DNA of 64,000 nucleotides from Prorocentrum cordatum (Eukaryota). The DNA is taken from the NCBI GenBank assembly GCA_963575745.1, contig CAUYUJ010000103.1:310001-374000 (forward strand). Direction: 5' to 3'. The notes under the pieces are model-generated. The model had not been told where the DNA came from, did not search any database, and saw only the letters and a list, made by a program, of their open reading frames with translations. Of this stretch, positions 6,976 through 50,117 are shown one piece after another. Each line of letters begins with the position of its first letter. Within the stretch, counting starts at the first letter, position 1. Position numbers and translations under genes: made by a program.

Positions 6976-8065
6976 GCTTGGCAGCAGCCTGGCAGCCCGG
7001 CCCCCCTGTGATAATCAGCACGCCGGGCACCCCTGTGATCTCCGCGGCTGCCCAGCAGCAGCCTGGCAGGCGCTGCTGCCCCTTTCCCTCCTCCCTCCCT
7101 CCCCTCGTCCTCCTTCCCCCTCGTGCCGGCCTCGTCTCACGTTTTTTTCATTGCACTGCGAGGGGCTCATTTGCTTGGGTCAGGGGCGCTCGCCTGCAAG
7201 CATTTGAGTTTTCAGGCCCGACGGCGGCATCGGTGCCGCCGTGTGGAAGCTCTCCTCGAGCTGCCGCCGTGTGTTCGACCCCGCCCTTTGAACGACGACA
7301 GCTCGTCTGCCTCCTGCTCTCCTTCCCCTTCCCCTCCTCGCGAGGATCGGGTGCACCTTCTGGGCCCGCGGTGGCTGTTCAGGGGCCGTTTGGTGACCTA
7401 GATACTTGCGCGACGGGTGCGGATTTACGTGAAGAAGTGGCATGTGCTCGTCAGCTTGAGAGCTCATTGTCCAAGGGCGCAACCAGCCGCCCAAGCCATT
7501 ACTTGGCTATTGGAGGGGCAGCTGTCAGATGACCCCCCCCCAAACAAACAAATAATAATAGTGGCCTTCGACCAAACTCGCCACTTTGCCTGGGCTGTGG
7601 TTCGCGAGCCTCTTGGAAGAATATGAGGAGGGTCTCTTGGCATGCCTGTCAAGGGCTCTCCGAGGGCTCTTGGGTGCATTTCTGAAGCTTTTAAGGGCCT
7701 CTTTGGGGCCGCTGGGGTGCTTCTTGGGGGCAATGGGGCCTCTTAGAGGCACCTCGGGGTCCTCCGGTGGGCTCTTGGGGCTATCTCGGGGGAAAGGCTT
7801 GAAATATCAGATCGTATTCCCATCTTTTGCTCCTCTTGGGACCCTCTTTGGGGGCCGTCGTGGGGGCCCCTGGGCCGTCTCAGGGCCCTCTTGGGCCGTC
7901 TTGGGGCCCTCTTGGGGGTTCATCGGCCGTTTTTGTGACGATCTTCTGGGTTCGTTGGGCAGTCTTAGAAGCCGTGCTTTCAAAAAATGCGAGTGTGCTA
8001 AACATGTTTTCCTAACGGAATGAGACGATATCGGGGCCTTCTCGGTGGTCCTCTTGGAACACTTT

Positions 8066-8326
8066 TGGTTCTAAAGCGCGCTGAGGGACATAAGGAGCAG
8101 AAGCGAGCGTGTGCCCGCGGCCGCGTCGGCCCAAGCGGCCGGCCGCCCAAATATGATTGTGTTTCACCGTGCGGCACACGAATGCTATCGAGACCAAAAG
8201 GACCATCTTATTTCTTAAGATGGCACATCCTCTCCTACTGGGACTATCGTTACTACGGTACAACAGAGCAGGAGCTTGGCTTCGCCTAAGGCGAAGCTGC
8301 TGGCGGGGCCTCCCAGCCCCCTTCAA
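8066..8326 (+). repeat. 5' LTR of element A
   Basis: Aligns without gaps to 27821-28076, about 34 mismatches in 256 nt by hand count. Confidence 0.9.
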
Positions 8327-8329
8327 ACT

Positions 8330-8339
8330 TGGTAGCGGA
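8330..8339 (+). promoter_or_regulatory. Primer-binding site, likely tRNA-iMet
   Basis: TGGTAGCGGA immediately after the 5' LTR; the same 10 nt occur in element B. Confidence 0.8.
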
Positions 8340-10412
8340 ACTGGCCTATGGTGGTCAGCTCTTGCTCTACTCCTCACCATCCACGGCACTATCTGGAGAA
8401 CTAAATACATGGTGGAACATCAGGGTGCAGTGGGTTTGCGCGGAGGAATGTATATAACTACGCATGATCGCAATGACACTTGCAGCGATACCTCTGCTTA
8501 CGCGGAGGTTTCCCACTTACGTCCTACATCCCTGCGCTGTTACACTCCTGAAGTCCACCCACCTATTCCAATTCGAAGTTTTATTCGAAAACACAATGCA
8601 TGGAAATATGCGATACGACGCAGCGCCGCCTCCATCCCCACGCAGACTCACGACTACACAACGGAAGCTCCAACCGACTACATCCGACCACGACTTACGG
8701 GGCCGTTGGATTTGTGTTACTATATTTGGACTCGCGTGGGTCGCTATCGGGTGTGCGGTAGGACAAATGCGTGGTGGAGGCGACACAAGAACGACCGGCC
8801 CTCACTGGGGCCCAGCCGGTCAAGTACGTTTTCGCGAATTCGCCCGCGAGGTGCATGCCTGGATCAACGTTACCATAGGCAACATGACGCCCGCCCAGCA
8901 AGCTTCAGCCTTGCCTCGAGGTCTGGGAGGTCTCGCGCGGACCATAGCCATGAGAGACCCCCCAGCAGTCATCAACTTTGGCGTTCACATAGGTGGTCGC
9001 CATGCCGACGGCGTCACCTACATCACGTTCCTCTTCAGCACGACGTTCGAGAACCTAGGAGAGAAGAGCCAACACAACTCTTGTACAGCTCTCATCGACT
9101 TCCGAGTCCATGCGGGGGAACGCATCCACCAGGCGTTAGCACGCTTCGATATAGCCCGCTATGAAGCTGAATCGGCAGGCTTCAACATCCCCAACTTCCA
9201 AATCCTAGCAGTGATATTATTTTAGAGCTCTTGGAGTGGGGGCATCGCGTGCGCAACAACTCCTGCAGCCTCTAAATACCACATGTCGAGAGACCAGCAA
9301 CAGTTTGATGCTCCACTCGAACGTATGAGGTCATATGCTCACATTGCCGAGCGAAGCCCTGGTAATGTCGGTGGTATTGTCAGTCACGGTCTCCGAACCG
9401 AGACCTTTCAAGTGGAGGCTAACGCAGGACAGCCTGCTCACAACGTCTGGAATGATCCACATCCAACTGAGACCACTGCTCTGTTGGCTCAGAATGGTGG
9501 AACGGCCTCGGGGTCGCAAGACTCCTGGACCAGGCTTCGGGGGCCGCCCGACGCGGTATCCCCCGCGCAAACCATGGCCCTAACGGCTCAGCGGGGCAAC
9601 CTGCCGAGTCCGATTTCGACCCCGGTATTGAGACCGATGCGTCTTCGGACGATGGAGCCACAGCCCACGACTATTCGGATACACCGCACTCACATCTATA
9701 CCCCTGGGTGGGTGTATGTGCGGCCGTTTTTGCGCTGTCATGTGCGCGCATGTGCGCGGCATGTGCCAGTCATGTGCCAGGCCTGTGCGGTCTTTCTTGG
9801 ATGGACTTCCTACTGTGCACGTCGTGCCCGGGCATGTGCGGGGGCATGTGCGCTGTGTTTTGATGTATCCATCATACGCACATGCACGCACAGTCCGACG
9901 CACATGCGCGCACATGCCTGCACATGCGGGAGGTGTTCGAGAATCGCAGATCTGTCATCGGCACATGCACGCACATGCCTGTGCAACCTCTCTTCGGGAG
10001 GCCGCGCGGGCCCGCACATGCACGCACATGCGGTGAAGCGCGCGGGCGCACATGCGTGCACATCCCAATGCACATGCACGCTCATGCCCTAGGAGCTGTC
10101 TGGGACCCCTGTGCCTCCAATGCCTCCTGGCCTTCGCAGAGCTAACCTGGGGCGTGCCAGGGCTTCCTGAAAGAGTTTGTTGTGCGTTTAGACTCGCCCG
10201 CTGCTGGCGGGGGCGGTTCTTCGCCCGGTTCGTGAGCTGGCGGTGGCGCGCCCGCCTAATAAAATACTCTCCCGCGCGCCTTCTCAGCTCGGCCGGAGAA
10301 GCAGGGATGGGGGGGGGGGAGGTGGAAGGGGGGGGAGGAGGGGGGGGCGGAGGAGGCGGGCGCCCCCGGCTCGGCCGGCCCGCCTGCCTGTTCGGCTCGG
10401 CCAGAGGAGAAC

Positions 10413-10503
10413 GAGGAGGAGGAGGAGGAGGAGGAGGAGGAGGAGGAGGAGGAAGAGGAGGAAGAGGAGGAGGAGGAGGAGGAGGAGGAAGAGGAGGAGG
10501 AGG
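10413..10503. repeat. (GGA)n microsatellite
   Basis: Direct read. Confidence 0.95.
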
Positions 10504-10765
10504 TGCAAGTTGCAAGGATGTCTCGGGCGAAAGTGGCTTGACGGCCCGAGCTTAGGGAATCTCGGAATCGCTGGCCTGGCTCGGCCACCGGCGAGCTCGG
10601 CCTGTGCGAATACTGTGCGTACCTGTGCGGGGCATGTGCGGGACGTGCAAGAATGCCGGGGCCAGCGTTCGTCTCCGGACGCCGGCGCGTTCGCGTCCGG
10701 CCGGTTCCGCGTGAGACGTCGTCGGCAATCTGGAGGCCGACGTGCTTTGACATGAAGTGATCTGG

Positions 10766-11684
10766 CCACCTTCGCCTGAGACATCCTCGCAACTCTGGTC
10801 TCGGAGATGCCCTGCCCCATGGTGGCCCGGCCACTTTCGCTTGAGATAATTATCCTCGGAACTCTGGGTTTCGAGACGCCCTGAGCTGAGGTGGTTAGAC
10901 CACTTTCGCCTGAGACATCCTCGCAACTCTGACCTCAGAGATCTCCTGCCCCATGCTGGTCAGGCTACCGTCGCCTGAGACATCCTCGCAAGTCTCGATT
11001 CCGATATGCCCCGAACTGAGGTGGTCAGCCACTGTCGCCTGAGACATCCTCGCAACCCTGATCTCAATGATGCCCTGCTCGATAGTGTCTCGGCCCCTTT
11101 CGCCTGAGACATCCTCGGAACTCTGGGTTCCGAGACGCCCTGAGCTGAGGTGGTTAGACCACTTTCGCTTTAGACATCCTCGCCCGAGATGCCCTGAGTT
11201 GAGCTGTTCAGGCCACTTTCGCCTGAGACATCCTCGCAACTCTGACCTCAATGATGCCCTGCTCCATAGTGTCTCGGCCTTTTTCGCCTGAGACCCTCGC
11301 AACTCTGGGTTCTGAGATGCCCTGAACAGGTGGTCAGGCCAGTCCTGCCTGAAACATCCTCGCAACTCTGGGCTCCGAGATGCCCTGGGCTGAGGTGCTC
11401 AGACCACTCTCGCCAGAGACATCCTCGCAACTCTGACCTCAGAGATCTCTTGCCCCATGGTGGTCAAGCCACTTTCGCCTGAGACATCCTCACAACTCAG
11501 ACCTCGGAGGTGTCCTGCCCCATGGTCGTCTGGTCACCTTGACCAGCGACATCCTCGCCACTCTGGTTTCCAAGATGCCCTGCCCCATGGTGATCCGGCC
11601 ACGCTTGCCTGAGACATCCTCGGAACTCTGGGTTGCGAAATGCCCCGAGCTCAGGTGGTCAGGCCACTATCGCCTGCGACATCT
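10766..11684 (+). repeat. ~65-bp minisatellite, ~14 copies
   Basis: Unit head CCACTTTCGCCTGAGACATCCTCGCAACTCTG recurs every ~65 nt; one inverted head copy at ~10508-10536. Confidence 0.95.
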
Positions 11685-14600
11685 CTGCGGCATGTGCGGG
11701 CATGTGCGTCTATGCTTTCAGAGTTTTGCTTGACCGTGCATTCGACTGTGCGTCGGACGGTGTGGCATGTGCGCGCATGTGCGGCAATGCTGTTGAGGCT
11801 TTTGTATATTTGCATGGGCATGTGCATGCGACTGTGCGGCATGTGCCTGCATGTGCGGCCCCTTCCGGACCACAATTTCAAAGTGAACACTATAGAAGTG
11901 AGCGCTATAGAAGTGAGTCCGGTGTATGCCTACATACCTCACGGAAGAGCAACAGGCGCAATGTTAATGTTTGGGATGCCAAACACATGAGCGCAGATGG
12001 AGGCGATTCGCAATGAAACCAGTCCGCAAGGTACAGCGTATCGCACGACGAGCACTCAAAGGAAAAGGCAAGGGTCGAAGTACGGGCAAAGGTAAGCGTC
12101 GGCGATCACATGGTAGAGGCATATTAGCATTCCTAGCATCCCTTACAGGGCCACAGTGTGAAGAAGTGTTTTAGGTGCAGGCAGAAACCACAGGTATACA
12201 TCAGGAAAAGGTAGAGGACGTCGGGGAAACCCGAAGGATGCAAACGGTCAGATTATGGAGTGCGACATATGCCACAGCACACAGCACTTTCGCCGCGAAT
12301 GCCCTCAAGGCGATGGGAGAGGCAGGGGTCCGTCAATACATCTGGCTCAAACTGACTCCGACATGCAGTATGTTGACTGGGGTCTCTTTTAGCTGACCCT
12401 GCCGGTAGCTCAGCTGCAGTTGTAAACTTCATGGCTGCCGGATACCTTAGCGCCAGTATGGCCCTCGAGAGTTGCGCCGGCGCGCTGTTCGTGGTGGCGT
12501 TCACTGGCCACAGCGATGCCGATCTGGCAGAATGGCTAGGTATACCCATCGCGGGGCAAACTGCAGATATTGAATTCGTCGGGAACTTCCACATGCCCGC
12601 CGAAGGAGATGCAGACATGGCGGGGGCACCCGCGAATTCAGAAGCCACTATTTCTGCAACAGACGAGGAAATACAGTTGATGCTTCATCCTCGGGTTATT
12701 GGAAATCCGACAAACATGGAATGGAGTGACGAAGGCCTTTTGCGGGGAAGCCCGCGCGACGTTCGTTATGTGTCTGAGCGCATTCAATATGAGCCTGGCC
12801 ATGATGAAGATTTTCGACGCACATTCGTCGCATCGGCCGCTCTATGAGCCGCCGGGAGCGATCGGCAAGTCGCCAGGTCTGGATGAAAAGGTATAGCGCC
12901 GATGATGACGACGAAGAATGGGAAGACGACGCTCGTCTGGTACGCCGCGGTCGGTTTCCCAGTCGGTCACCCAATCGTGCGCGCGCGCGCCCCAGCGGCG
13001 CTCGCTCTAGCGGCCTTCAGCGCCCTCATCCTCTTGATGCGGGTGCTCCAAAAGCTTCTCCATGGCAGGCCGGGGGGCCTGGCGCCCCCCTGGGGGGGGC
13101 CGCCTGCGGGGGCATCCGCTTCAAGAAGATCAGCCGCAAGAAGAATATCCAGAGGGCGGAGTACAGCGCTTGTTGGCTACGCGGAAGCGGGGTTGGCTCG
13201 TCAGTACATGCCCCCAGGTTAGATGCGTATTGGTTGGGCTCGGTTTGGGCTGAGCATCAGATCCGCCACTGCTATTCTCTTCAAACGAGATGATGACGGC
13301 GAGATCATTCGCTCGACAATGACAGGACCTGTCAAAACACAAGCAAAGATTGCCAATCGCGACTTCAAGGGAAGTGTCATCGAGAAACGGAAGCTTTAAT
13401 TACAGAGGTGTTCGTTGCACGTGCCCCGAATATGCCTGCCGCAGGCCCGGCTGCCCCGTGGGGCGCCCATCAAGAAGCCCGAACTTTAAGAGGACACCGC
13501 GGGTTTGTTCTCATGGTGATTGTCGGGGTTACTGCACCGATCCTAATGAAACGCCATACGAGGCAGTTGGCGGAAGCCGACTACGAGTAAGCAGCGGTCA
13601 GTGAAATATTCCAATCTATCCAGATATGGAAAAGCCTTTCACCTCCTCATTATTCGAAGCAGTTCAATCGCGACTGGCACGCGGAGCACGCGGGGAAATC
13701 TGGTCCACTCAAATCAGAAGAAGATGATCGGCAAGAAGCTGATGAAGATAAAGATGGTGAGATGGCCGAAGCGGTGGACGCCGCGGGAGAAGCTCTCGAA
13801 GGGCACGCCTCAGACGACTCCATTGTCGGGGACGTCACGTGCGAAGCGGGCGCCCCTATAGATCCTGACGGTGCCGTCGCAGCAGAAATGGGCCTTTCTC
13901 CTGGAAGAAGGATTGCCCGCCGCGCTGGAGGGGTAGGTTGGATCAAGACCAGCATGGAACAAATGTTTTAGCTCTACCACGTGCCTCTTGGCCGAGGAGC
14001 AACAGGCCATTATCCGCAATGTGGCCCTCAGAATGCCGAGCGGCATCGACCTGGGCCCTGACCGGGGCCCCGTGCGATATGGGCCATGGGCACGGGCAGG
14101 GGCAGCGGCTGAGGCAGCCCCCAAGCCGAAGCCAGTTCTGCCTATTGATACTTCTCCATCTTCGGATTCGTCGAGTCCGTCGCTCGTCCTGATCAGCTCA
14201 GACCGCCGCCCAAGCAGAAGAAGAGGAAGAGCCCAGATGGCCCTAACCCAGAAGACAGCAAGCAGCAACGACCTGCGGGGCAACCTGCTGACAGACGTCG
14301 ATCCAGAGGGCCAGCGGTGGCTGCCGCAGCAGCTGCGTTTCAAGGCACCAGCGCACCTGCTCCGAAGGGCCCTGCACCGCGTCGCGGCCCTGCGCTGGGT
14401 CGGGCGCGCGGGGCTGGCTGGATGCCGGCGCTGGAGGGGCCATCAAGGGTCGCTTCTTCAACGCGGCGAAGCACGGGCAATAATTTTTTGGAGACGGGCA
14501 CCAGGGACAGCTCCCAAATAGAAGACAGCCGAGCACTACAACATCAATGACAAGAAACGCCAGGACTTTAACATCAGCGCCCCGCCAGGGGCTCCACGGG

Positions 14601-15049
14601 CGCCTAGGGGAACAGCAGGCGCTGCCTCATCATCGGCAGGCGCTCATGCACCCGCAGCATCGGCGACGGCCCAGAGTTCAGCGGGGCAACCTGCTCAGAG
14701 TTCTGCAGGGCAACCTGCTCAGAGTTATGCAGGGCGACCTGCTCTTACTTTGGAGGTGCCCGTCGATTGCCGGCAGTATTGGGGTATTCTACGCATTTCC
14801 AATCGCACGCGGATCACCCCAGCATACCATCCTCAATTTGATGACGGGCCTGATCGATACATCGCGGTGAAATGCGACCTCGAGGGCGCCGCCGTCCTCG
14901 CTGCCAAGGACGCTCGCACGCGCCAGATGGTGCGTAATAGTTTTACGTATACGCTCGATGGTCACGTGCGATTCGGAGAAGGGCGACTTGATTGGGATCC
15001 TCGACGTTGAGAACATCAAAAGGCCAACGTTGAGCCTGGAGGAGCAGCG

Positions 15050-15775
15050 CCGCTGCTCAGAGTGGCTTACGACTGCTCTTCGCCACAAACACTTTCATCG
15101 CAACTATCTCTCTGATAGGTTCCTGCGAGCAGTGCCGTCCTTCGACGAATTCGATGGGTGGGTTGAGTTATCAGAGCTGCCAACCACTGGCCACCTGAAG
15201 GACATGATTGGTATCAGCACAAACACCTGGAGACTGTGCGCCAGCGGCTCCAGATGCGGCGCTGGGCATGCCAGGCTTTAGCTGTGTAGAACCTGACTGG
15301 CATGGTCGACCATGCTGGAATGCAGAACAACTACAGGCTGCAGCTCAATAAGTGCCAGTGCGCCTGAGTCGCACGAGACGTATTCCATCCGCCCAAGCAA
15401 CGGACGCAGTAGCCTTGCGATAAAGTGCCCTGAGTCATTGTATATGAGAATGACAAATATGATTGTTCCAGGTGCACCTTGAGATTTTATTCATGGTACT
15501 CAGTGGGCTAGCATCGCGAATATATTTAGCATTGGGCTGTCGTGCCGCGCTGGCAACACCAGCAAGGAGGGGGGCAGACAGTTGGTTCATGCTTGCCCAT
15601 ACCCAGCATGCGACAATAGAATCCACCTCGGCTTGCGCGTTGACTCCGAAGTATTGGTTATGGTTACTTTGAAGAGCCTGCTTCGGGATAATCTGCCGAT
15701 TTGGCGCTCGGCAAATGATGTTATAATGTCAGCAGGTCGGGGCGGCAGAATTCCTCCGACTCACATCTTTCAGCT
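15050..15775 (+). pseudogene. Tpt1/KptA-like RNA 2'-phosphotransferase domain within element A
   Basis: Ordered motifs SEWLTTALRH, DGWVEL, NYRLQL, IRPSNGRS, FIHGTQWASIANIFSIGL, GRQLVH, GLRVDSEVLVMV, WRSANDVIMSAGRGGRIPP. Local frameshifts and stops are present. Confidence 0.8.
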
Positions 15776-17122
15776 GTTAGGTACTCTACCCAGCGAAAAT
15801 TGCAAGTGCAATCGCGTGGGGCACGTAGGGATCGAACCCATGTACCTGTGGAACATCAGTCAGCAGTATCCGTGCAGTGATATTTCTATCGAGAGAATGT
15901 ACAATTTCCGGAGTGATGCATCATCTTTGATAGATTCGTTTATCCAAGAGACACCCTCCAATTTGAAGTACCCCGAACTGACGCCCATCCAGGGAGTCGA
16001 GTCTTCAATCGTGTTCATGATGCAGGACACGTACCAAGCGGGGGCACCTGCACGGGGATCTGATGGATCTTGGATACAGGCCCAAAGTGCGGACGTGACA
16101 GGTGCGACTTCAAGTGGCATTACTCCCACCGACACGCTATGCGCCAACGACCCGTGGCGTGCTCCAGTGCAGCAGCTGCCAGTACTTGCAGGGCAACCTG
16201 TGTCGTTCGCACCTATGAGCCGAGCCACAACTCCATTTGGGGCTCCACAGAGTGCTGGGAGCACCAATAGCCTGCAGGCATGGCCCCAACGCATTCGGAT
16301 GGACCCGCAGCTCTACCAGGCTTTGCAGGCGACGTCGCCATTCGCATCGCCGCGCCCACATGCGGGGCCACCTGCTTTTCCTGATCGCCACGCTGCACAG
16401 AGGATCGAGAGCTTAGTTGGTCAGCCAGAGTGGATGTACCGGCAGATGCCCGAAGCCGCTCAGAGCATGCGAAGGGATGGCATCGACCTCCCTAGCGCCA
16501 ACTGGACGCCGCATCCGACATGCGATCCGACTGCTGCAGAACGCCCCACAGCAGCACCGATGGACTTCCCAGTGTACCCTGACTATCACGCTCAGGTAAG
16601 TGGTAATCCTCGTGTGGGGGCGCAGCCGGGAAACCCGTATGTACGAGCGACGGCCGACGACTGTTACGCGGTGGGAGTATGTTCCAGACTCAGTTGACGC
16701 GCGGCTCGGGTTACGCGTCAGGCGTGCCGGGCCAGATTCTTCATTGTGGATATTTGGCCGCTTCTATGGATTCAGATGTGCAGCAGCAGGCCCCAGGCCT
16801 TGTAGCGCCATCATCCATGGGGGAGCTGCGCCCAGAGATTCTGGCCGCTCATGAAGCGCAGCAGGCCAACATCGCGATGCAATCAGCCCGCCAGGGTCGC
16901 AACCATGAGCGTCAGGTACGCAGGATGCTGGGCCGTGCGGGGCAACCAGCTACTCCAAATACAGCAGGGGCACCTGCAATTAACCCGGCAGCACTTGCAG
17001 CAATGCAGCTACCGTCGGTCCCACCGATTCGATATGAAGTTGGTGAAACCACTCTGGGGCGCTAGACGCGTATCAGGCCACCGGCAGCACCGGCAATCAT
17101 CAGCGACGGCGGCTTTAACACG

Positions 17123-17293
17123 TGCGCCATATGCTTGGACCACTTCATGGATGACGACGAGGGGGGGGGGAGGTTTTAGTGTGGTCACTTATTCAATGCA
17201 CTGTGCTGGGACCGAGTTGCACATGCTCATGTGGGCAGACAGTTGGCTGGCAATATGGAAGGTACCGCAACAGAGGCACCCTGCGCCATCTGC
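17123..17293 (+). pseudogene. RING-H2 finger, copy 1 (frameshifted)
   Basis: CAIC..CGHLFNALCW..CAIC. Confidence 0.7.
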
Positions 17294-19173: not shown

Positions 19174-19341
19174 TGCGCCATATGTTTGGCTCACTTCATG
19201 CATCGCGACAAGGTCTGGAGGTTTTAGTGTGGTCACAGATTCCATGCACTGTGCTGGGACCGAGTTGCACATGCTCATTTGGACAGACAGTTGGCTGGCA
19301 ATATGGAAGGTACCGCAACTGAGGCACCCTGCGCCATCTGC
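19174..19341 (+). pseudogene. RING-H2 finger, copy 2 (one in-frame stop)
   Basis: CAICLAHFMHRDKVWRF*CGHRFHALCW...APCAIC gives the C3H2C3 ligand pattern. Confidence 0.82.
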
Positions 19342-20159
19342 AGGGGCGTTGGTTTAATCACAGCTGAGTTGCATTATGCCCTTGCTGGGGATCAGGATGC
19401 ACTGGGTCGTCGTGGAGAGATACTCCGAGCGGCTCACGAACTCAGGGACCTTCGCGAAGAGCTCAACCGCGTCACGGCAATGATGATGCACAACACGGCA
19501 GCCCCTACAACAACACCAGCGGGGCAACCTGCGTCATCAGCCAGAGCGGCACAGGCGACGGAGGCCGCCGCGCCCGCTGTGGATACGCCGACGCCACTAA
19601 TAGCGGAGACTGCCAACAATGCAGGGACACCTGCTGCAACCGCACCAGCCGCGGTGCCGGTCAACGACATGTGGTTGAGGCGTTTGGGGAGAGCCACCGA
19701 CAGGAGCGCTCAGTGGCTTCAGTTTCCACATACCTACATGCCATGCGGGCGAGACGCCCGTCCGCGCAGCCAGCGCAGAACGCAGAGCCCGGTGAGCGTG
19801 CGCAGTGGCATAAGTGCGATATCCGAACGCGGCATGTTGCATACTGTGTTAATGGTAAACACAGATGGTCAGATGGGCATGCGCGCCGACGAAGATACGT
19901 TTCTGAACTTGCCTGCCGCGCGTGCATCGCGTCCACGCGCGCATGACGAGTATCCTACGGCCTGGATCTTCGAGAATAACCCCATTCCGGAAGAGGAGGC
20001 CCGTGGATGCATGAACGTTTGCATATCTCTGTCAAGAAACGACTGGGTGTTGGAGCAGAGGCGCCGCAGGGGCATGTCTGGTACGACGCTGTCTGAAGTG
20101 CCGGGCTTGTTTGGAGAACGCTACGAGTTGGCTCGGGCAGCAAACAGTGGAACAATGGT

Positions 20160-20620
20160 GGATGGCATGCTAACAATCCTTCTGGACATTGGCAGCAACA
20201 TCGACATCATTAGTTTGAAGACGGCACAGACATTCGAACAGGTATCCCGTTCCCACGGACACGCCATCAAGGAGCTGAACCTGACGAAGAGGCTCGACGT
20301 GTCGGGAGTGGGACATGGTGCCGCGGTCTGTGGTAAGTCCTTGCACTGCAAGGTTGCGCGCAAGGAAAGGGGGGACCTGGCGGGGGCACCTGCTGCGCCG
20401 AGACTTGATACCTATTCAGCGAATGTGGCTGAGGCTTCAGGGGGGGGTCTCCCTCCTATTCTGGGTTTGAGGAGCATGTCCAAAATGAAGACTATCCTGA
20501 GCCTGGAGCAGGGGCACGAGAAGATGATCATCCCTGGCTCTGATCTGCACAGGCTTCCACTTGGAAAGGGTTCCAGAGAGCTTGATCTGATGATGGCGCC
20601 CCCTGCGCATCTGGCACTCA
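20160..20620 (+). pseudogene. Retropepsin-like aspartic protease of element A
   Basis: ILLDIGSNIDII (Asp at 20185), VSGVG flap, LPPILG. The upstream duplicate has D>G (LLGIGS). Confidence 0.75.
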
Positions 20621-22560
20621 AGGATGACGAGTGCGGGGCCGGGACTGAGGATAAAAGGGTCAATGTCGTTTACAATTGCGGCCGATCCTCAACGCGAGGA
20701 TGGCCCGCTACTTGACAGAGAGGCATCTGATCCAGAGCCAGCCGCTGGGGCACCTGCTGTGAGTGATGCCCACACATTTATGATGCCACAGGATACCAAG
20801 GGCATCAGCCATTCCATCAACGAGGAGACGCTCGCTTCCACGATCCAGCCTGGTGAATAGCATCATGAAGACCTGGCATCGCAGGGATGCGTCCTTCAGG
20901 ACCAACCCCACCTCTGCCGATCAGGACTTCGCTGTGCGCAACTTGCAGGCGAGGGTATATCAGGATTCTTACGAAGGGGGGCGCAAAGTGGACGCCGCCC
21001 GAAGCACAGGCAGGGACACTTGCGGAAGCGGCTGATCCCGCCGAGAAGTTCGATATCTCTACTTCGAGCAGCGGCTCTGCAGCGCAGCATGGCACGGGCA
21101 TTTGGACGCCCCCACCGCCAAATGAGCGACGTGGGCAGGCGCGTGCCACGGCCGCCCGCGCTTGCACGGACAGGCCGGCCGCTCAGGTGCTGTCATCAAG
21201 TGCGGGGAAGCCTGCGTTCTTTTCTCAGGCGCCCGCTGCGCGCGCCAGGGGCAGCGGCAAGCCTGGCTGCGCGGCTGCCGCGGATAGCAGTGGTCCCGGT
21301 TGTGTGGTCGCTGCAGAAAAAAGAGTCCATATCGCATCATTCTCATCATCGTGCATTTGTCATTGAGGATCTACGGACAGCTCGCGCTGAACTCCGAGCC
21401 TGTGGTCATGTGTGACCGTATTACACATGCAGAGGTCATGGCCTCCACTGTTTCACAATATTTGGGTGTCTTACTCTCGGGTGGCTACAAACTGTTATGG
21501 ATGGCAAAACCGGCTGGTTGGCACGTGAGACCGCCTGGAAAGCGGGCAGGAGCACACTTGCAACGCATCCAAATCTTGATGACTGAGGCTCGGGCTCTGC
21601 GCATGACTACTGCGCTTGCGGGGCCACCAGGATACTTCTGCAAACGGGGTCCCATACGAGACGCTACTGAAGATCTTGACTTGCAGGTCATGCGTATGCG
21701 ATTCTGCCATTTCGGTTTGAAATACGACCGTTCTAGTCAGTTGCCTAGCGGATCCCGACGCACCTGTAGAGGTGCACGTGTAAGACAGCAGGGGAACCTG
21801 CGCAACTTACTGAGCGTGCTCTGGATTGGCGTGGACAAGGGGCTTAGAAGGCCGAATGGCGTAACAAGACGTTAGCTATCATGACTGCAAGGTTGCTTGG
21901 TCAAATTGACTTACGCAAGACGCAGAGAAATCACACAAGTGCTGCACACCATAGCACTTACACTCGAGTGGATACATGAGTTCGAACTTACGTTCGGTCT
22001 TCGAACAACAGCCCTGAGTGGGACCATGTCGCCCGACGGGTAACGGTGAACCTGGATGATAATTCGATCGTACAAGGCATCAAGATCCAGGACCAGCCTA
22101 TCGGGTACAATTACAATGCGCCGTTACTGGATGGTGTAACCAACATCCGTACTCGACTTTACTGGGGACAGCCCGATCCGGCTCCCATCGGATACGGGGG
22201 CCCACGTCCACGCCGAAGACGCCGAAGGAGCCCAGTTCACCTGATGTTGCGCGACAGATTGACCAGCGGACAGCATTACCGACCGATGCCCGAATCAAAC
22301 AAAAAGAAAAACAGCAAGCAGACAAAGAAGCGGGCATCAGACCACGCAAGATACCCAAGATAGTCGAAGAAGGCAGCGATGTTTGCGGAGATGACTTTAA
22401 AGGATTAGGATGTGGCGCGTATTATACCGACGCACCCCTTGACTCCGACGCGGAAAGCGTTGATGAGGAGGAGACTTTCATCGCATTATTTGCGGGGTGA
22501 CTTGCTGAACCTTACGCAGATTTATGCTCCATAATCCCCACCTTGTGCTATGGGCGTCCC

Positions 22561-23200
22561 AACAAGGTGGACGTGTTGGAATTATGTGGAGGAAGTGGAG
22601 GTATGCCGCAGCTAGCATTCAGCCGAGGTTTGTCTTCGAGGGGAAACCTCGACGAACGCTCCTTTGTTGACCTTGGAAACAAGGATGTACAGGTTGCTGT
22701 GGTGCACTACCTAGACGTTTGTTTCGTCAATGTTGTCATATTACAACCCAGCTGCAGAAAGACTGGACTTCCTTCCTATTTCAATGCTCAGGTAAACTAC
22801 GATAACTGGTATGAGCATCACAAAGAAGATCTGCCGCATATCAAGTTTTGTGATAAGGTTGTTATGCGTCAGAACGGTCTTCGACGGTTTTCATGTACGA
22901 AAACAACCAGTGGGTACTTGGGTGGATCAGATACCACCATGGACTTCACTGGCCAAATGCAAGGGCACTTGCACGGTTAATATGGTCCAATGCACTACTG
23001 GCTTACGCGATTCCCACGGGATATTGATACGAAAGTCGACCGAGTTCATGGCCAACCACCGCTTTCTTTCTACCCTATGTGAGCAAAGACGATGGGCTGG
23101 TCATCATCAACACGCGTCGGTATGCAACAGAGAACTGCCCATGGCTGCACAGTGCACTCCAAAGATGCAGTCGCTCTTTGCCGATGCAGTTCAGATCGCA
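22561..23200 (+). pseudogene. C5 cytosine methyltransferase-like domain between PR and INT (element A)
   Basis: DVLELCGGSGG (motif I-like), ILQPSC (IV-like), RKQP (VI-like), VQCTTGL..KST (VIII-like). One frameshift. Confidence 0.7.
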
Positions 23201-23969
23201 CACGATCTCTTTCAGGTAAACCGTGACCCCTTCCATGGTCACCCTTTTCTTCCACCGTGTTAGTCACCAACCTGAGAGGATATGATTTGGACGATCCGAC
23301 TTTGCCTCGGCAGCTCGACGGCTCGATCGTGAGACCACTTTCGGGAGGGCTCGGGTGTCCCGCACGCGCAGATAATGTTAAAATGCGCTATCCCTCGCAT
23401 GACAGAAATCCCAGGCATTGTAGGTGGTATGATAAGGAAGACTACCATTGGGAATGTCAGAGCTGCAAGAAGAACTACGGCCAGAACAAGCCCGGGCATG
23501 TACTAGCACCTGGCAAATGCAAGTTTGCCAAACCCCGGAAAATACTTGGCGCTCATGGACAGGTACCACCGGCTCCTGCCGAACCGGCAGCAGGACCTGA
23601 ACCGCCGGCCCCTGCTGAACCAGCAGCACCACCACCCGAGGCGCCTGCCGCACCACCGTTCACGCGGCTAAGAGCACCAAGACCCGGCTCTAGAGCTTGA
23701 CCTACAGCGGGCGCAAGCAGTCACGATATTTCAGTAGGCAGACATGTTGTTAAACCTGCTGCAGGGCCACCTGCCTCGAGCGGAGCTGGAAGTTCGGATG
23801 GCCATCCCGGACTACCACAGGTTAGAGTCAGACGTGGCCGACAGCAAGGTGGAGATGCACCTCTTCCGCCACCAGCGGGCTTTTTGCTGCACGACCACGA
23901 TTTCCAGACTGGTCACGGTTCAACGTTCAAATCAGTTCACAACATTTCCGAAGCTTTGACCCAGGCGTG

Positions 23970-24660
23970 GTAACACGCGAGTTGCGGAAGCTACACTTGC
24001 GCTGGTTCCATGCGGAAGCGCTTAAGATGAGACTCGTCTTAGCTAAGGTAATCTGGACAACGTCAGACTCAACCTGATTAAAGGTGTCTGCGACACATGT
24101 CGGGAGTGCAGGGCTCGTGACCAGCCTGGGCATACTGTTATGCCCTCCACTGGGCTGCCTGGAAAAGTTAACGAAGAAGTGGAATGTGACGTGATGTTTT
24201 GTTATACAAGAACACCGGATCTTTCATGTCATCGACCGTTGTATTCGATATGTGGCCGGAATGGAGGTTCCAGACAAGACGATGGCCATAGTTCTAGATG
24301 CATGTCATCAGTGCTGGATGCAGCTTGGACCTGCAGAGGTACTCAACTCCGACGCAGAGGGCGCCCTCAACAACGACACTGCGAAAGCAGTTCTTAAGGC
24401 AAAGTGCATTGAACTCAGGGTACGTGCGCGTGGACAGCGCGCTGCGACGATCGAAGCCAGAAATGGCATATCACGCAATCTACTTCATGTCATGGAAGCT
24501 GAACTCAGCAGGTTGGACATACCTCTTGTGTTCACACGATTAATGCACGAGGCCTTGTTTACCGCCAGCGCGCTCACTTTCTACAACGAGGTGTCTCCAT
24601 GCAACGCTCTGTTTGGACGGCAACCATCAATGCTTCCGGACTTACCTGTCTTGGACCATT
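23970..24660 (+). pseudogene. Integrase of element A
   Basis: LRKLHLRWFHA..CDTCREC (HHCC), VECDVMF, SDAEGA, IEARNG. Frameshifts present. Confidence 0.85.
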
Positions 24661-25919
24661 AGCAGCCGACGGCAACGTCGGATCATTCTCGTGGACAGAC
24701 GATGCGCAAGGTATGCGTTGAAGCAATCACACAGGCCACAGCAGTAGCTAAGACCAATCGTGTCTTACGCACAAAGACAACTGTCACGGGTCAGCATTAC
24801 TACGATGAAGGAGACTTGGTCGATTGTCATCGCCCCACAACCGCGAAGGACTACAGGGGAGGCTGGAATGGCCCATTCCCAGTTGCAAAGAACGATCCTG
24901 GCAGGGGTCAAGTCATCATCCGAGTGGGCAAACGAGATATTCAGGTACAGTACGACGACGCACGGCATTCACTCTATATTGAAGCACTGATAGCCCGGGA
25001 AATTTTTCTCCGACAGCGCTGCACTACGGACAGCGTTGACGTTCGTGGCGAGTTTGCCAGCGGGGAGACCTGCCATGTCATTCGGCTGTGTACCGACCAA
25101 GAAAGGGACGCTTCGAATTACGAGTGCAAGCCGTTTATCTCTTAAGGTACACGTAGCCTTACAGCACCTTACTAGAAGCTTCTTCCGCATCGAGAACGTC
25201 GTTTTTGTCAAGTTAGCTAAGAGTATCCATAAGCTACCTCCGGTTGCCTACGCTGACAGCTGCGCATTGGCCCACTATGGCAACGGCGTGGGTCCAGGAT
25301 TTCACTACTATGAAGCGGAAGGCATCGCGCTGAACATACACGACATAATTGGATCAACACATTCGATAATAATCCAGCGCCTAAAGTCCACCAGACCTCA
25401 AGGGGCGTGACAAGGTTTACGAAATTGGCGGATGCACTGGCGCCGGGTGGAACCGCAAGAGAAGCCTCAGAAACCGAACCACCACATGAGGATGGACGGG
25501 GGTTTCTACGATCTACGAGGATTTCGAGGCTGGTCTCGAGTCACATGTCATGGAAGTGTGGCATGCAGAACTGCAAGATGAAAGGGAACTGCTGGAGGCA
25601 ACTCCGCGAGAGGACCTTTTCGCAATGCCCGCGCGGATGGTTCCAGACCAAAGTGCGTTGATCACTGTAGCTGATGATCAGCGGGGGGGCCTGCCTAAGC
25701 GGGGGCGCGCGCGCGACTCCGACGCCGAGGATGCGCATTACGTCCCGTTATTTTTCATGGTCGAAGACTGCAGCTACGGACTGGACTCAGACGGAAATGC
25801 GCAGCATGTAGAACTCTGCTTCACGGCAGGAATGTCAAAGGTAGTCCTGTCCGAACAACAACGCATGATACTAGATGCCGACCGTGTGACCACTATGCGA
25901 GTATAAGTTACCGCCGCTG

Positions 25920-27664
25920 CAATGCGAGCAGCGGTCGTCAAGGAAGACGACCTCCTCGCGAAAGTTGGCATCCAGGCGAATCCCGAGAAAGTATCGAAGG
26001 CCCTCTACACTGAATTCAAGACATGGTTTGACAAAGAGTGTTCCAAAACGCAAGACATATCTAAAGCGTCAAACATCTTGGCTTCGAGGTATGCGCACAT
26101 ATGGAGGCTTGTGTGAGGAACGAGAAGGGCGAGATGGAACGCGCCATCCGATTGCGCCGGGTACCCCGAGATCACATGGACCTTGAAGCCCTCGATGTAG
26201 AAACTTTGTTCAGGAACAGCGCGGCGGTCAAGCCGCGGACTACTCGCTAGCACCGCAGCGTGCAAGAAGCAATGGATCATTGTTTCCCCCTACATCAACA
26301 TGGCCTTCCTGAAAGGGTCGGCCTATCAGGAACTTGCTGAGGCAACTGGTGGAAAGGAGCGCGTGGCGTGCTTTACTTTGCCGCCTGGATCGGCCGCGGT
26401 GCTTCGGACTCTCCCAGGGTTCGAACCTTACGACGAGTCAAAGCATTGCTTGCAGTGCTTGGAACCAGGCACTGGCACCAAATATGCACCGCGAGCTCTC
26501 TCACTGAAGCGCAGGAGGGCCGCTCGAGGCTTTGGTCTCTGACCCGCGTCCTACGACGAGGAGTTCGAGACGAGCAGTAACCTGCTTACGGTCAAACATG
26601 TCGATGATATTATTGTGGCTGGCGCTGAAGACACCGTTGACAAGTCTGTCAAGCGTGTAGAATGCACTTTTGGTAGGTGTAAATTCAACGAGCACACATG
26701 CACCAACTGTGCTGTGAGATATATTAGGTATGAGGACGGCGATGTTACTTTGGACCAGTGCGAATACATGAAGCAGCTCCATCCTGCACAGCGTCTTGAA
26801 CTTTCTTGCGCCGGCGCTGGCGCCCAGGCATCCAAGATGTCTGCGTGCGCGTTCGTCAGCCTCTGGGGAGCGCTGGCGTATGCATTAATCACCCATGTGT
26901 GGTGGATGGTGTATGTTGTATCTCTACAACACGTCCAATAACCTACAAATGGTCAAACACGACGACTGAAAGTGATCGCTATGAAGCAGCATGCCTGCCC
27001 CAATAAGATCGTCTACCAGGCGATGACCCCTACGGGCGAGGTTGACCTGCACAGCGACTCAGGATACCGACGCGTGAGTGGAGACGCCGATGACGACGTC
27101 AAGGGCTATGGTATTCGCGGGGCAAGCCTGCTACGGCGTGGAAAAACGTTATTCGGTAAACCTGTCGTCGACTTCATCGACGCGCACTGCAAGTCTCGCC
27201 GCTTGCAGGTCCGCTCGATTTATTCAGCAGAGACACTAGCAGCATCCCATAATATGGAGGACTGTTATCCCACGATCGTGGCTCTGCACGAGCTCCACGC
27301 GGGGCCGCTCGCGCCCACTCAGTTGAAAGACATACTTGAGTTGGGTGGCGTGAGCTTCGAAGTCACTTTGACCATAGATGCGGAGTCTGTTTGTAAGTCC
27401 TTGTCAAGCAAAGACTTGAAGAAGCAGACTGCGTGCACCTTTTTAGGACACATAAGTTGGATACGACAAATGATGGAGCGTGAAACCGTGCACAGTGTTC
27501 ACTGGTGCGACACCCGCGATATGTCTGCGGACGGTCATACCACGGGGAGCATCGACAGATATATGCTCCTACAGGTCATGAGAGGTATACAGGCCTTCAA
27601 GCATGACCTCAACAATCATACTCCATATCGGGCTGGCCAGACATCTGGTTATGTAGCCGCCTGA
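25920..27664 (+). pseudogene. Reverse transcriptase + RNase H of element A (copia type)
   Basis: INMAFLKG, GTKYAPR, KHVDDI (26594-26608), then SDSGY, AETLA, IDAES, MSADGHT. Several stops and frameshifts. Confidence 0.88.
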
Positions 27665-27815
27665 GGAATATATTTAAATACTGAATCGTACAGGCAAGGG
27701 AACTTGCGTGCGGGTCCACTTTCCTTATGGCCCGCCCCTTTTCTGTCCTTTTGCATATTATTTGCTGTGCCTGCTGTAAAGGGGCGGCGAACTCACGCCT
27801 TGTCTCCCTCCCCCC

Positions 27816-28077
27816 GGCGACTAAAGCGAGCTCAGGGACCTAAGGAGCGGAAGCGAGCGCGTGCCCGCGGCCGCGTCGGCTCAAGCGGCCGGCCGCCCAG
27901 ATATGATCGTGCCTCACCGCGAGGCGCACGATTACAATCGAGACCAAAAGGACCCTCCAATTGTTTAAGATGGCACAGTTTCTCCTACTGGGACTATCGT
28001 TAGTACGGTACAACAGAGCAGGAACTTGGCTTTGCCTAAGGTGGAACTGCTGGTTGGGCCTCCCAACCCCCTGCAAA
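27816..28077 (+). repeat. 3' LTR of element A
   Basis: Direct repeat of 8071-8326. Confidence 0.9.
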
Positions 28078-50045: not shown

Positions 50046-50048
50046 AGA

Positions 50049-50060: not shown

Positions 50061-50117
50061 CGTGAGGCTCCACGCGACCTTTCATAGTGGGTTCACGGTA
50101 TATTTCTTTCAGAATCA

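What the first reader, a model, noticed from the sequence alone, without database searches (positions are those of the whole stretch)
8066..28077. Cargo-laden giant copia element: Gag - Tpt1/KptA - RING-H2 - protease - MTase-like - INT - RT - RH
Seen: after removing the 2.2-kb nested TIR element and the 2.2-kb duplication, about 15.5 kb remains between matched LTRs, with all domains on one strand in polyprotein-like order. Established: ordinary copia elements are far shorter and encode only Gag, PR, INT, RT and RH. Inference: this is an LTR lineage with its own RNA-repair/ADP-ribosylation, ubiquitin-ligase and DNA-methylation toolkit, which could act as a counter-defence module. I know of no description of this combination. 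This copy is dead.
Basis: partly seen in the sequence, partly recalled or inferred. Interest (0 to 1): 0.85.

Follow-up and report, generated by a model that had tools for sequence, protein, structure and literature searches.

The report
Dead giant copia-like retrotransposon with cargo
This is a broken, full-length copy of a very large, many-copy jumping gene of a marine alga whose family carries an RNA-repair enzyme domain (Tpt1) and a ubiquitin-ligase finger (RING) inside its own polyprotein, while the proposed DNA-methyltransferase part could not be confirmed.

Summary
Two 260-nt LTRs (86-87% identical) bound 20.0 kb. A 2.25-kb TIR element is nested in Gag, and a 2.1-2.2-kb stretch is tandemly duplicated. 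About 15.6 kb remains, with every recognisable part on the + strand.

- **Confirmed by statistics:** the Tpt1/KptA domain (Pfam above cut-off) and the RING-H2 finger next to the protease-like part (Pfam above cut-off in 13 of 15 long relatives).
- **Motif level only:** protease, integrase (weak rve), RT and RNase H. Pfam RVT_2 does not hit this copy.
- **Not confirmed:** the "MTase-like" part. It is a real, conserved domain with 49 relatives and a homologue in a second, young copia in this window. Pfam, a PDB profile, hhalign against real C5-methyltransferases and a fold search all failed to link it to methyltransferases.

The cargo is not a one-off capture. Contigs of one public run cover all 30 bins of the element at 80% likeness or more. 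Distant relatives keep Gag-RING-protease but not Tpt1, so Tpt1 is the later addition.

The copy is dead. Counter-defence is untested speculation. The scan has already reported this family on other pieces of the same genome. My paper searches found no published description.

The parts
8071..8329 (+). 5' LTR
   Evidence: Direct repeat with 27821-28079; 86-87% identity.
8330..8341 (+). Primer-binding-site-like TGGTAGCGGAAC directly after the LTR
   Evidence: Read. The likeness to the 3' end of initiator tRNA-Met is recalled, not tested; there is no tRNA gene in the window.
8722..9495 (+). Gag, capsid-like part
   Evidence: tblastn with the distant relative P0157, aa 256-516, E 4e-19. No Pfam family.
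9679..11927 (.). Nested non-autonomous TIR element with a GAG microsatellite (10404-10503) and a 65-bp satellite (10757-11683)
   Evidence: 27-nt inverted ends, 85% complementary; tandem repeats. P0157 alignment jumps from 9495 to 11992 across it.
11992..12326 (+). Gag C-terminal part with a CX2CX4HX4C zinc knuckle (12261-12302)
   Evidence: tblastn with P0157 aa 582-697, E 8e-10. Knuckle read.
12327..15029 (+). Unassigned stretch between knuckle and Tpt1. It is part of roughly 1,260 extra codons that relative P0157 lacks between knuckle and RING.
   Evidence: No Pfam hit. Lowest summed contig depth of the element, 135-139 in bins 12750-14083. Carries the element's 14-nt hairpin motif at 12551, 14275, 14681, 14705 and 14729.
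15030..15737 (+). Tpt1/KptA domain. The Pfam-supported part is 15369-15737. The N-terminal lobe from about 15030, with 'LRH' at 15078-15086, is seen by eye only.
   Evidence: PF01885 at 28.8 bits (cut-off 26) in the natural ORF 15483-16694. Read through three in-frame stops as X: 42 bits, E 1.4e-10, profile positions 70-177 of 177. PDB 7yw3 (TRPT1) at E 2.1e-6.
16238..18449 (+). Tandem duplication, copy A (holds RING A 17123-17293 and a partial protease-like part 18078-18631)
18448..20542 (+). Tandem duplication, copy B
   Evidence: 91.8% identical to copy A, K2P 0.087.
19174..19341 (+). RING-H2 finger, copy B (C-X2-C ... C-X-H-X2-H-X2-C ... C-X2-C), with an in-frame stop at 19225-19227
   Evidence: tblastn with P0043, P0044 and P0143. 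Relatives reach Pfam zf-RING_2 / zf-RING_11 above cut-off. The window's own fragment reaches only E 0.17-0.83.
20143..20649 (+). Protease-like part, 'LLDIGS' with Asp at 20185-20187 and a downstream 'ILGLRSM'
   Evidence: tblastn with P0157, P0168 and P0043, E 1e-18 to 3e-21. No Pfam protease family. hhalign to the Pfam-supported protease of the second copia gives probability 0.2%.
22560..23260 (+). It has 'LELCGGSGG' at 22576-22602, 'QPSC' with Cys at 22753-22755, and a frame change near 22892.
   Evidence: 49 relatives at 54-81% identity. hhalign to 53678-54460 of the second copia: probability 76%, E 2.3e-5, 146 columns. All methyltransferase tests were negative or inconclusive.
23952..25049 (+). 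Integrase
   Evidence: Pfam rve at E 0.007 (17 bits, cut-off 32.6) in ORF 24195-24659; E 0.018 when read through. Copia-like motifs read.
25990..26938 (+). Reverse transcriptase, by motif only: 'YINMAFLKG' from 26291, 'YAPRA', 'HVDDIIVAG' from 26597
   Evidence: Read. Pfam RVT_2 not hit at E<=0.1 even when read through. BLASTP to the RVT_2-positive RT of the second copia aligns only motif C, E 0.52.
26942..27661 (+). RNase H-like C-terminal part (240-codon open frame)
   Evidence: Motifs by eye. AlphaFold without an alignment gave pLDDT 31.6, unusable. Atlas: nearest clusters unnamed at 0.93-0.94; RVT_2 on 12% of one cluster at 0.87.
27821..28079 (+). 3' LTR
9591..25073 (+). 20 dispersed copies of the 14-nt hairpin motif GCGGGGCAACCTGC (up to 2 mismatches), all on the sense strand and all inside this element
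   Evidence: 20 matches against 1.0 +/- 0.97 expected from 100 shuffles of the window. GNRA-loop hairpins with stems of 5 or more: 28 on +, 4 on -, 5.4 +/- 2.5 in 30 shuffles.

Best explanation
**What it is.** Window 8071-28079 is an old, dead, full-length copy of a high-copy family of very large LTR retrotransposons. Without later additions it is about 15.6 kb. It has Ty1/copia-type order: LTR, PBS, Gag with a CCHC knuckle, a long insert holding a Tpt1/KptA domain, a RING-H2 finger, protease, a conserved roughly 230-aa domain of unknown family, integrase, RT, RNase H, LTR.

**History at this site.** After insertion the copy took up a 2.25-kb TIR element in Gag. It then tandemly duplicated 2.1-2.2 kb covering RING and protease. 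Both RING copies share the same in-frame stop, so the duplication post-dates the inactivating mutation.

**Shown.**
- Tpt1 and RING are parts of the element lineage.
- The RING-protease pairing is old: it is kept in relatives only 27-45% identical.
- Tpt1 sits in roughly 1,260 extra codons that a 1,671-aa relative lacks, so it is a younger addition.

**Inferred working model, for intact family members.**
1. The Gag-side polyprotein is cut by the protease, which frees Tpt1 and RING modules in or near the particle.
2. Tpt1, using NAD+, most likely removes 2'-phosphates left on the element's RNA after breakage and resealing by a plant/fungal-type RNA ligase, so that reverse transcription is not blocked (my odds about 0.25). 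Alternatively it ADP-ribosylates 5'-phosphate ends of RNA or cDNA (about 0.15).
3. The RING-H2 finger recruits a host E2 to ubiquitinate a host restriction factor or Gag itself (about 0.3 that it acts as an E3 at all).
4. The unknown domain is more likely a non-catalytic or nucleic-acid-binding module than an active DNA methyltransferase.
For: **LTR element**
-.

**Colinearity with a distant relative**
- P0157 (1,671 aa) aligns in order to Gag 8722-9495, knuckle 11992-12326, RING 17105-17347 and 19168-19395, protease 18188-18631 and 20143-20649.

**Tpt1**
- PF01885 above cut-off, 28.8 bits in the natural ORF and 42 bits read through with X.
- PDB TRPT1 7yw3 at E 6.9e-5 and 2.1e-6.

**RING**
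- 13 of 15 relatives of 400 aa or more carry Pfam RING above cut-off, 130-250 aa upstream of the protease-like part.
- 6 of 10 further cluster members do too.

**Family trait, not a one-off**
- phmmer over 1.84 billion representatives found 370 proteins at E<=1e-3 and 140 at E<=1e-10 for the RING-protease frame.
- The unknown domain has 49 relatives, 41 from one EukProt data set and 8 from ENA.
- In run X1, 22,334 contig pieces at 80% likeness or more cover all 30 bins. This includes the Tpt1 bins (summed depth 190-292) and the unknown-domain bins (741-879). At places 15516-15525, 15 contigs carry another letter.

**One unit**
- The element-specific 14-nt sense-strand hairpin motif occurs in Gag, in the cargo stretch, in RING-protease and near integrase: 20 of 20 matches inside the element on the + strand.
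- No internal LTR-like repeat pair brackets the cargo.

**Tpt1 is the younger part**
- P0157 has 330 aa between knuckle and RING and no PF01885 at E<=1.

**Duplication after death**
- The same in-frame stop sits in both RING copies.
- K2P is 0.087 for the duplicates against 0.153 for the LTRs.
Against: - **No sister copy was seen as one piece.** The contigs laid are short (listed pieces 322-700 nt) and four scans for related DNA found nothing. Linkage of Tpt1, RING and Pol in one open frame is therefore not shown here.
- **Depth over the cargo is lower.** Depth over 12750-16084 is 4 to 17 times lower than over RT-RNase H (135-292 against 1217-2329). Either only part of the family carries this stretch, or it evolves faster, or RT recruits other families.
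- **RT, RNase H and protease have no statistical support in this copy**. Integrase is below Pfam's cut-off.
- **Only the C-terminal two thirds of the Tpt1 profile align** (positions 70-177). The N-lobe and the catalytic residues are read by eye in a decayed copy.
- **No selection test was possible**, because no DNA of sister copies was available.
- **No function was tested.**
Confidence: 0.78

Rival explanations
1. Composite element. The stretch from about 12.3 to 17 kb, with Tpt1, is a separate mobile sequence or a subfamily-limited insertion nested in a RING-bearing copia. Tpt1 is then not an integral part of the polyprotein.
For: - The distant relative P0157 has only 330 aa where this copy has about 1,590 codons, and it has no Tpt1.
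- Summed contig depth is lowest exactly here, 135-292 against 800-2,500 elsewhere.
Against: - No repeat pair, direct or inverted, brackets the stretch.
- It is on the same strand as the rest.
- The Tpt1 frame is broken by in-frame stops only.
- The element-specific hairpin motif occurs 11 times between 12551 and 16937 as well as outside that stretch.
- The stretch is itself many-copy.
Confidence: 0.12
2. One-off capture. This single copy picked up fragments of host Tpt1, RING and methyltransferase genes.
For: Nothing found. The only weak point is that no sister copy was seen whole.
Against: - Every bin of the element is covered by many diverged contigs in run X1.
- There are 49 relatives of the unknown domain.
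- There are 140 relatives of the RING-protease frame at E<=1e-10.
- RING sits next to protease in proteins only 27-45% identical, from other sources.
Confidence: 0.03
3. The cargo is a family trait but inert. Tpt1, RING and the unknown domain are passenger or structural modules (spacers, protein-protein contacts) with no enzymatic role in transposition.
For: - The unknown domain matches no enzyme family.
- Its counterpart in the second copia lacks the glycine-rich loop.
- No selection or activity data exist here.
Against: - By eye, the Tpt1 part still shows the family's conserved HGT, GLS, R-x-x-V-H and SAN motifs after about 15% neutral decay.
- RING metal ligands are kept in relatives 27-45% identical.
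Confidence: 0.2
4. The domain between protease and integrase is a divergent but genuine C5 cytosine methyltransferase that methylates the element's own cDNA, as proposed for DNMT-bearing retrotransposons.
For: - By eye the family consensus is colinear with C5-methyltransferase motifs. Motif I matches LELCGGxGG, IV matches QPNCRTTG (SPMCRMFS in the second copia), VI matches REQP/HEHP, VIII matches DQCxTG...KPT...N, and X possibly matches GN...YP..L.
- hhalign places motifs I-II and IV on the right columns.
- In the Atlas, the nearest named cluster is PF00145 on 46% of members, score 0.85, which is a lead only.
- Earlier notes of this scan (e1-7630509, e1-7693708, not checked) call it methyltransferase-shaped but catalytically dead.
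Against: - Pfam DNA_methylase hits 0 of 49 members.
- The profile against PDB sequences finds no methyltransferase.
- hhalign probabilities are 2.3%, 8.7%, 0.5% and 1.8%.
- The AlphaFold model has pLDDT 53, and Foldseek and VIA-align give no match.
- The Pro-Cys and Glu-Asn-Val signatures are replaced.
- There is too little sequence between motifs VIII and X for a target-recognition domain.
- de Mendoza et al. 2018 (PMC5890265, passage read) state that Symbiodinium Copia elements lack any DNMT domain.
Confidence: 0.3

Closest known systems
Ty1/copia (Pseudoviridae-type) LTR retrotransposons, e.g. the ~10-kb SmTCL elements of Symbiodinium microadriaticum (PMC5776459, passages read)
   Same: Paired LTRs, a PBS-like site after the 5' LTR, Gag with a CCHC knuckle, a protease motif, and integrase upstream of RT and RNase H.
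   Different: - About 15.6 kb against 5-10 kb.
- Carries Tpt1 and RING between Gag and protease, and an extra conserved domain before integrase.
- Pfam RVT_2, protease and gag models do not recognise this copy.
- LTR ends are not TG...CA.
DNMT-carrying retrotransposons: SymbioLINE-Dnmt, SymbioDIRS-Dnmt3, KnitGypsy-Dnmt3 (de Mendoza et al. 2018, PMC5890265, passages read)
   Same: A retroelement polyprotein with an extra enzyme-like module next to Pol domains, in marine algae or protists.
   Different: - Those are LINE, DIRS and Gypsy elements with Pfam-recognisable DNMT domains.
- That paper says Copia elements lack DNMT.
- The domain here is not recognisable as a DNMT by any test run.
Cellular Tpt1/TRPT1/KptA RNA 2'-phosphotransferases (Pfam PF01885; PDB 7yw3, 7yw2)
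   Same: Sequence match above Pfam's cut-off over the NAD+-binding or catalytic lobe (profile positions 70-177).
   Different: - Embedded in a retrotransposon polyprotein, not a free-standing ~180-250-aa enzyme.
- Has an 8-residue insert before the conserved Arg.
- The N-lobe is not aligned by HMMER.
- This copy is broken.
Viral RING E3 ligases (herpesvirus ICP0, poxvirus p28; recalled, not searched)
   Same: A mobile genetic parasite that encodes its own RING finger.
   Different: Here the RING-H2 lies inside a Gag-protease polyprotein of a retrotransposon. No target or activity is known.

Membership tests
Ty1/copia LTR retrotransposon | Two long terminal direct repeats bounding the element | tested here: met
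   8071-8329 and 27821-28079, 86-87% identical.
Ty1/copia LTR retrotransposon | PBS complementary to a tRNA 3' end next to the 5' LTR, and a 5-bp target-site duplication | tested here: inconclusive
   TGGTAGCGGAAC follows the LTR, but the tRNA match is recalled. A TTTGG / TTTGG duplication exists only if both LTR limits are shifted by 1-2 nt. With the limits used here the flanks are TGGTT and TTTTG.
Ty1/copia LTR retrotransposon | Integrase upstream of reverse transcriptase | tested here: inconclusive
   rve reaches E 0.007, 17 bits, below the cut-off of 32.6, at 24216-24425. RT motifs A, B and C are seen by eye at 26291-26622. The order is as in copia, but neither domain reaches a curated threshold.
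Ty1/copia LTR retrotransposon | RT of the RVT_2 (PF07727) type | tested here: not met
   No RVT_2 hit at E<=5 on single frames or at E<=0.1 read through. BLASTP to the RVT_2-positive RT at 54461-56044 gives E 0.52. As a lead only, an Atlas cluster that shares the unknown domain carries RVT_2 on 94% of members.
Ty1/copia LTR retrotransposon | Gag with zinc knuckle and a retropepsin-type protease | tested here: inconclusive
   CX2CX4HX4C at 12261-12302. Relative P0157 hits zf-CCHC only at E 0.1. Protease motif DIGS...ILG is present, with no Pfam hit and hhalign probability 0.2%.
Tpt1/KptA (PF01885) | Pfam score at or above the gathering cut-off (26 bits) | tested here: met
   28.8 bits, E 1.5e-6, in ORF 15483-16694. 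42 bits, E 1.4e-10, with X at three stops.
Tpt1/KptA (PF01885) | Both lobes and the Arg-His-Arg-Arg catalytic set (residue names recalled) | tested here: inconclusive
   Only profile positions 70-177 align. 'LRH', 'IRP' and 'GRQLVH' are seen by eye. The copy is decayed.
Tpt1/KptA (PF01885) | NAD+-dependent 2'-phosphate removal or ADP-ribosyl transfer | not testable with these tools
   Needs an enzyme assay on an intact copy.
RING-H2 finger (PF13639 / PF17123) | C3H2C3 ligand pattern | tested here: met
   Copy B, 19174-19341, has all eight ligands but an in-frame stop in the first loop. Copy A has His to Asn at one ligand.
RING-H2 finger (PF13639 / PF17123) | Pfam score above cut-off | tested here: inconclusive
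   The window's fragment after the stop reaches E 0.17-0.83. 13 of 15 relatives of 400 aa or more, and 6 of 10 cluster members, are above cut-off.
C5 DNA methyltransferase (PF00145) | Recognition by the family profile | tested here: not met
   0 of 49 family members hit PF00145 at E<=1. hhalign against a 6-sequence DNMT profile gives probability 8.7% or 1.8% and covers motifs I-II only.
C5 DNA methyltransferase (PF00145) | Pro-Cys catalytic dipeptide (motif IV) and Glu-Asn-Val (motif VI) | tested here: not met
   The family consensus has QPNC and REQP; this copy has QPSC. The second copia has SPMC and HEHP.
C5 DNA methyltransferase (PF00145) | Methyltransferase fold | tested here: inconclusive

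The most novel reading that the evidence does not exclude
These elements belong to a widespread, undescribed marine clade of virus-sized copia-like retroelements. They have built an RNA-end-repair enzyme (Tpt1), their own E3 ligase finger, a methyltransferase-derived module and a dispersed sense-strand hairpin 'code' into one replication machine. In this reading Tpt1 clears 2'-phosphate scars from the genomic RNA, so that host RNA-cleaving defences followed by ligation do not stop reverse transcription. That would be a retrotransposon-encoded counter-defence by RNA repair.
Probability: 0.15. Interest if true: 0.85.

Novelty: new variant of a known kind. Interest (0 to 1): 0.6.

Why it matters
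- LTR retrotransposons are thought to carry few accessory enzymes. A family with Tpt1 and a RING finger in its polyprotein would widen that list.
- Tpt1 has a conserved but poorly explained distribution. A retrotransposon-borne copy would give it a concrete, testable job in the life of an RNA that must be reverse transcribed.
- The negative result matters as well. The claimed methyltransferase is not supported, so the published statement that copia elements lack DNMT stands for now.
- This window also shows that the same unknown domain sits at different places in two unrelated copia lineages, before integrase in one and between integrase and RT in the other. That suggests a module which moves between elements.

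Tried and rejected
**Sister copies as DNA**
- The search for related loci found nothing in metagenome contigs with P0001 and P0168 or in viral contigs with P0157 and P0001.
- No genome is held for this window.

**Longer relatives**
- The 'longer' protein searches with P0002 and P0001 found none. The tool itself calls this weak evidence.

**Expression**
- No RNA holder was listed for 12000-21999.
- Runs X2 and X3 lay almost only on low-complexity bins.

**Methyltransferase tests**
- Pfam on 49 members, the PDB profile and tblastn of P0191 against phages gave no match.
- hhalign against E. coli Dcm and a six-member DNMT profile gave nothing significant.
- AlphaFold on the 49-row alignment gave pLDDT 53. 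Foldseek pdb and VIA-align wide found no match, and no methyltransferase was among the rows listed. This says nothing about the true fold.

**RT, RNase H, integrase and protease**
- Pfam on single frames and read-through found nothing above threshold.
- PDB sequence searches were empty.
- BLASTP and tblastn against the second copia gave nothing significant, and hhalign of the protease alignment gave nothing.
- AlphaFold of the 240-aa RNase H frame without an alignment gave pLDDT 31.6.
- The Atlas gave only a weak RVT_2 lead, 12% of one cluster at 0.87.

**Other checks**
- The N-lobe of Tpt1 alone has no PDB or Pfam match.
- Rfam over 7500-28600 found no ribozyme or other family; the only match was mir-466 at E 0.84, which is chance.
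- No dinoflagellate spliced leader within 3 mismatches and no tRNA genes in the window.
- dN/dS on accessory domains could not be computed, because no sister DNA was available.
- The search of earlier findings by sequence and by six words returned nothing.

Full report
**Anatomy**

The window is GC-rich (41-64% per 2-kb window) and no whole genome is held for it. A 260-nt direct repeat lies at 8071-8330 and 27821-28080, 86.9% identical. On a MAFFT alignment there are 36 differences in 262 columns, K2P 0.153. TGGTAGCGGAAC follows directly after the 5' copy. I recall this as close to the complement of an initiator-tRNA 3' end, but it was not tested, and the window holds no tRNA gene. A clean 5-bp target duplication appears only if the LTR limits are moved by one or two bases.

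Two later additions are present inside the element.
- A 2,249-bp element with 27-nt inverted ends lies at 9679-11927. It carries a GAG microsatellite and a 65-bp satellite.
- A tandem duplication joins 16238-18449 to 18448-20542, 91.8% identical, K2P 0.087.

**Which domains are really there**

I ran Pfam on 120 + strand frames of 50 codons or more. It gave only two relevant hits: PF01885 (Tpt1/KptA) at 28.8 bits against a cut-off of 26, and a weak rve hit at E 0.007.

The Tpt1 stretch is in one frame broken by three in-frame stops. Read through with X it scores 42 bits, E 1.4e-10, over profile positions 70-177. It also matches human TRPT1 (7yw3) at E 2.1e-6. The N-terminal lobe is seen by eye only.

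The RING and protease parts were settled through relatives.
- The 495-codon frame 19228-20712 found 370 proteins at E<=1e-3 among 1.84 billion representatives.
- 13 of the 15 relatives of 400 aa or more carry a Pfam RING above cut-off, 130-250 residues before the protease-like part.
- 6 of 10 further cluster members do so too.
- In the window both duplicate copies show the C3H2C3 pattern, and both carry the same in-frame stop in it. The duplication therefore came after the inactivating mutation, which fits its lower divergence.

A 1,671-aa relative (P0157) aligns in order to Gag, knuckle, RING and protease. It skips the nested TIR element. It has 330 residues where the window has about 1,590 codons between knuckle and RING, and no Tpt1 at E<=1. 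So RING-protease is the old pairing and Tpt1 lies in a younger insert.

Protease, RT and RNase H rest on motifs alone: DIGS...ILG, then YINMAFLKG / YAPRA / HVDDIIVAG, then a copia-like C-terminal pattern. None of the following gave support:
- Pfam RVT_2, even read through
- PDB sequence searches
- BLASTP against an RVT_2-positive copia RT in the same window
- hhalign of the protease
- a single-sequence fold of the RNase H frame

The copia label therefore rests on domain order and on relatives.

**The 'MTase-like' part**

The frame 22501-22977 has 49 relatives at 54-81% identity. Of these, 41 come from one EukProt data set and 8 from ENA assemblies, so it is a genuine conserved domain. By eye the family consensus lines up with C5-methyltransferase motifs I, IV, VI, VIII and perhaps X.

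Every test failed to link it to methyltransferases.

| Test | Result |
|---|---|
| Pfam PF00145 on family members | 0 of 49 |
| Family profile vs PDB sequences | no methyltransferase |
| hhalign vs E. coli Dcm | probability 2.3% |
| hhalign vs six-member DNMT profile | probability 8.7% and 1.8% |
| AlphaFold model | pLDDT 53 |
| Foldseek and VIA-align | nothing |

The ESM Atlas gave two leads. A PF00145 cluster scores 0.85. A structural neighbour cluster carries RVT_2 on 94% of its members.

One new point came from the window itself. A young 6.4-kb copia lies at 49891-56273, with LTRs 99% identical. It has zf-CCHC, gag-asp_proteas and RVT_2 hits. It holds a homologous domain at 53678-54460: hhalign probability 76%, E 2.3e-5, 146 columns. 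There the domain lies after the integrase-like part and before RT. In the giant element it lies before integrase.

**Is the cargo a family trait?**

One public run (X1) holds 22,334 contig pieces at 80% likeness or more. They cover all 30 bins of the element. Most pieces are under 95% alike, so they are other copies. The Tpt1 bins have summed depth 190-292, the unknown-domain bins 741-879, and RT-RNase H 1217-2329. The lowest depth is 135-139, at 12750-14083. At 22892, 14 contigs lack one base, which is where this copy changes frame.

The cargo is thus many-copy, which rules out a single capture. Its lower depth leaves open that only part of the family carries it. I could not obtain any sister copy as contiguous DNA. 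Linkage in one open frame and dN/dS therefore remain untested here.

One argument for unity comes from a 14-nt sense-strand hairpin motif, GCGGGGCAACCTGC. It occurs 20 times with up to 2 mismatches, against 1.0 expected. All 20 are on the + strand and inside this element, spread from Gag through the cargo to integrase. GNRA hairpins with stems of 5 or more number 28 on + and 4 on -, against 5.4 in shuffles.

**Source organism**

The closest proteins, and one 100% identical fragment, come from an EukProt set labelled Pyramimonas sp. CCMP1952. More distant relatives come from ENA, JGI and NCBI assemblies. No dinoflagellate spliced leader is in the window. Earlier notes of this scan guessed a dinoflagellate. 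I leave this open.

**Earlier work and literature**

The scan has already reported Tpt1-bearing giant copia elements on other pieces of this genome, along with their RING, a 'dead DNMT look-alike' and GNRA hairpins. I treated these notes as leads. I re-tested the hairpins (confirmed), Tpt1 and RING (confirmed) and the methyltransferase likeness (not confirmed).

- de Mendoza et al. 2018 (PMC5890265, passages read) describe DNMTs in LINE, DIRS and Gypsy elements and state that Symbiodinium Copia elements lack DNMT.
- Chen et al. (PMC5776459, passages read) describe ~10-kb copia elements with RT, INT and RNase H only.
- Searches for Tpt1 or KptA with retrotransposon terms, RING with copia or LTR terms, and Pyramimonas with retrotransposon returned no description (listings only).

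**Verdict**

This is an ordinary event (a dead TE copy) from an unusual family. The structural reading is well supported for Tpt1 and RING, weak for the Pol domains in this copy, and unsupported for the methyltransferase. All mechanisms are inferred.

Noticed in passing
window 49891-56273: A second, young copia element of 6.4 kb with 158-nt LTRs 99% identical. Pfam hits are zf-CCHC and gag-asp_proteas in ORF 50088-51920, and RVT_2 (E 1e-9) in ORF 52481-56044. It carries a homologue of the giant element's unknown 'MTase-like' domain at 53678-54460, but between the integrase-like part and RT. It has SPMCRMFS where C5 methyltransferases have PCQxFS, and it lacks a glycine-rich loop.
   Followed up: partly
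window 9591-25073, + strand: The 14-nt hairpin motif GCGGGGCAACCTGC (5-bp stem, GCAA loop) occurs 20 times with up to 2 mismatches, against 1.0 expected. All copies are on the sense strand of the giant element and none lie elsewhere in the window. Some copies are explained by the 2.2-kb duplication and by a 24-bp tandem repeat at 14672-14744. In one frame it encodes AGQPA, a peptide that also recurs in distant relatives, so RNA-level and peptide-level readings are not separated.
   Followed up: partly
window 17180-17182 and 19225-19227: Both copies of the duplicated RING finger carry the same in-frame stop, where relatives have Gln. The local duplication therefore happened after the copy was already inactivated.
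   Followed up: yes
window 6372-7938 and 28082-28129: A repeat family of the CTTGGGGCCTCTTGGG type lies on both sides of the element (repeat finder family D4, 17 copies). The element seems to have inserted into a tandem-repeat array.
   Followed up: no
window 9679-11927: The nested TIR element has subterminal GCACATGC-type repeats in opposite orientation at its two ends and an internal 65-bp satellite. Its bins are many-copy in run X1 (summed depth 942-2135 outside the microsatellite).
   Followed up: partly
whole window: The tools label the closest proteins as Pyramimonas sp. CCMP1952 (a green alga), while earlier notes of this scan on the same genome guessed a dinoflagellate. The window has no spliced-leader match, no tRNA gene, and no clear host gene among 61 frames of 130 aa or more scanned outside the element. 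The only Pfam hits there belong to the second copia, apart from two low-complexity matches.
   Followed up: partly
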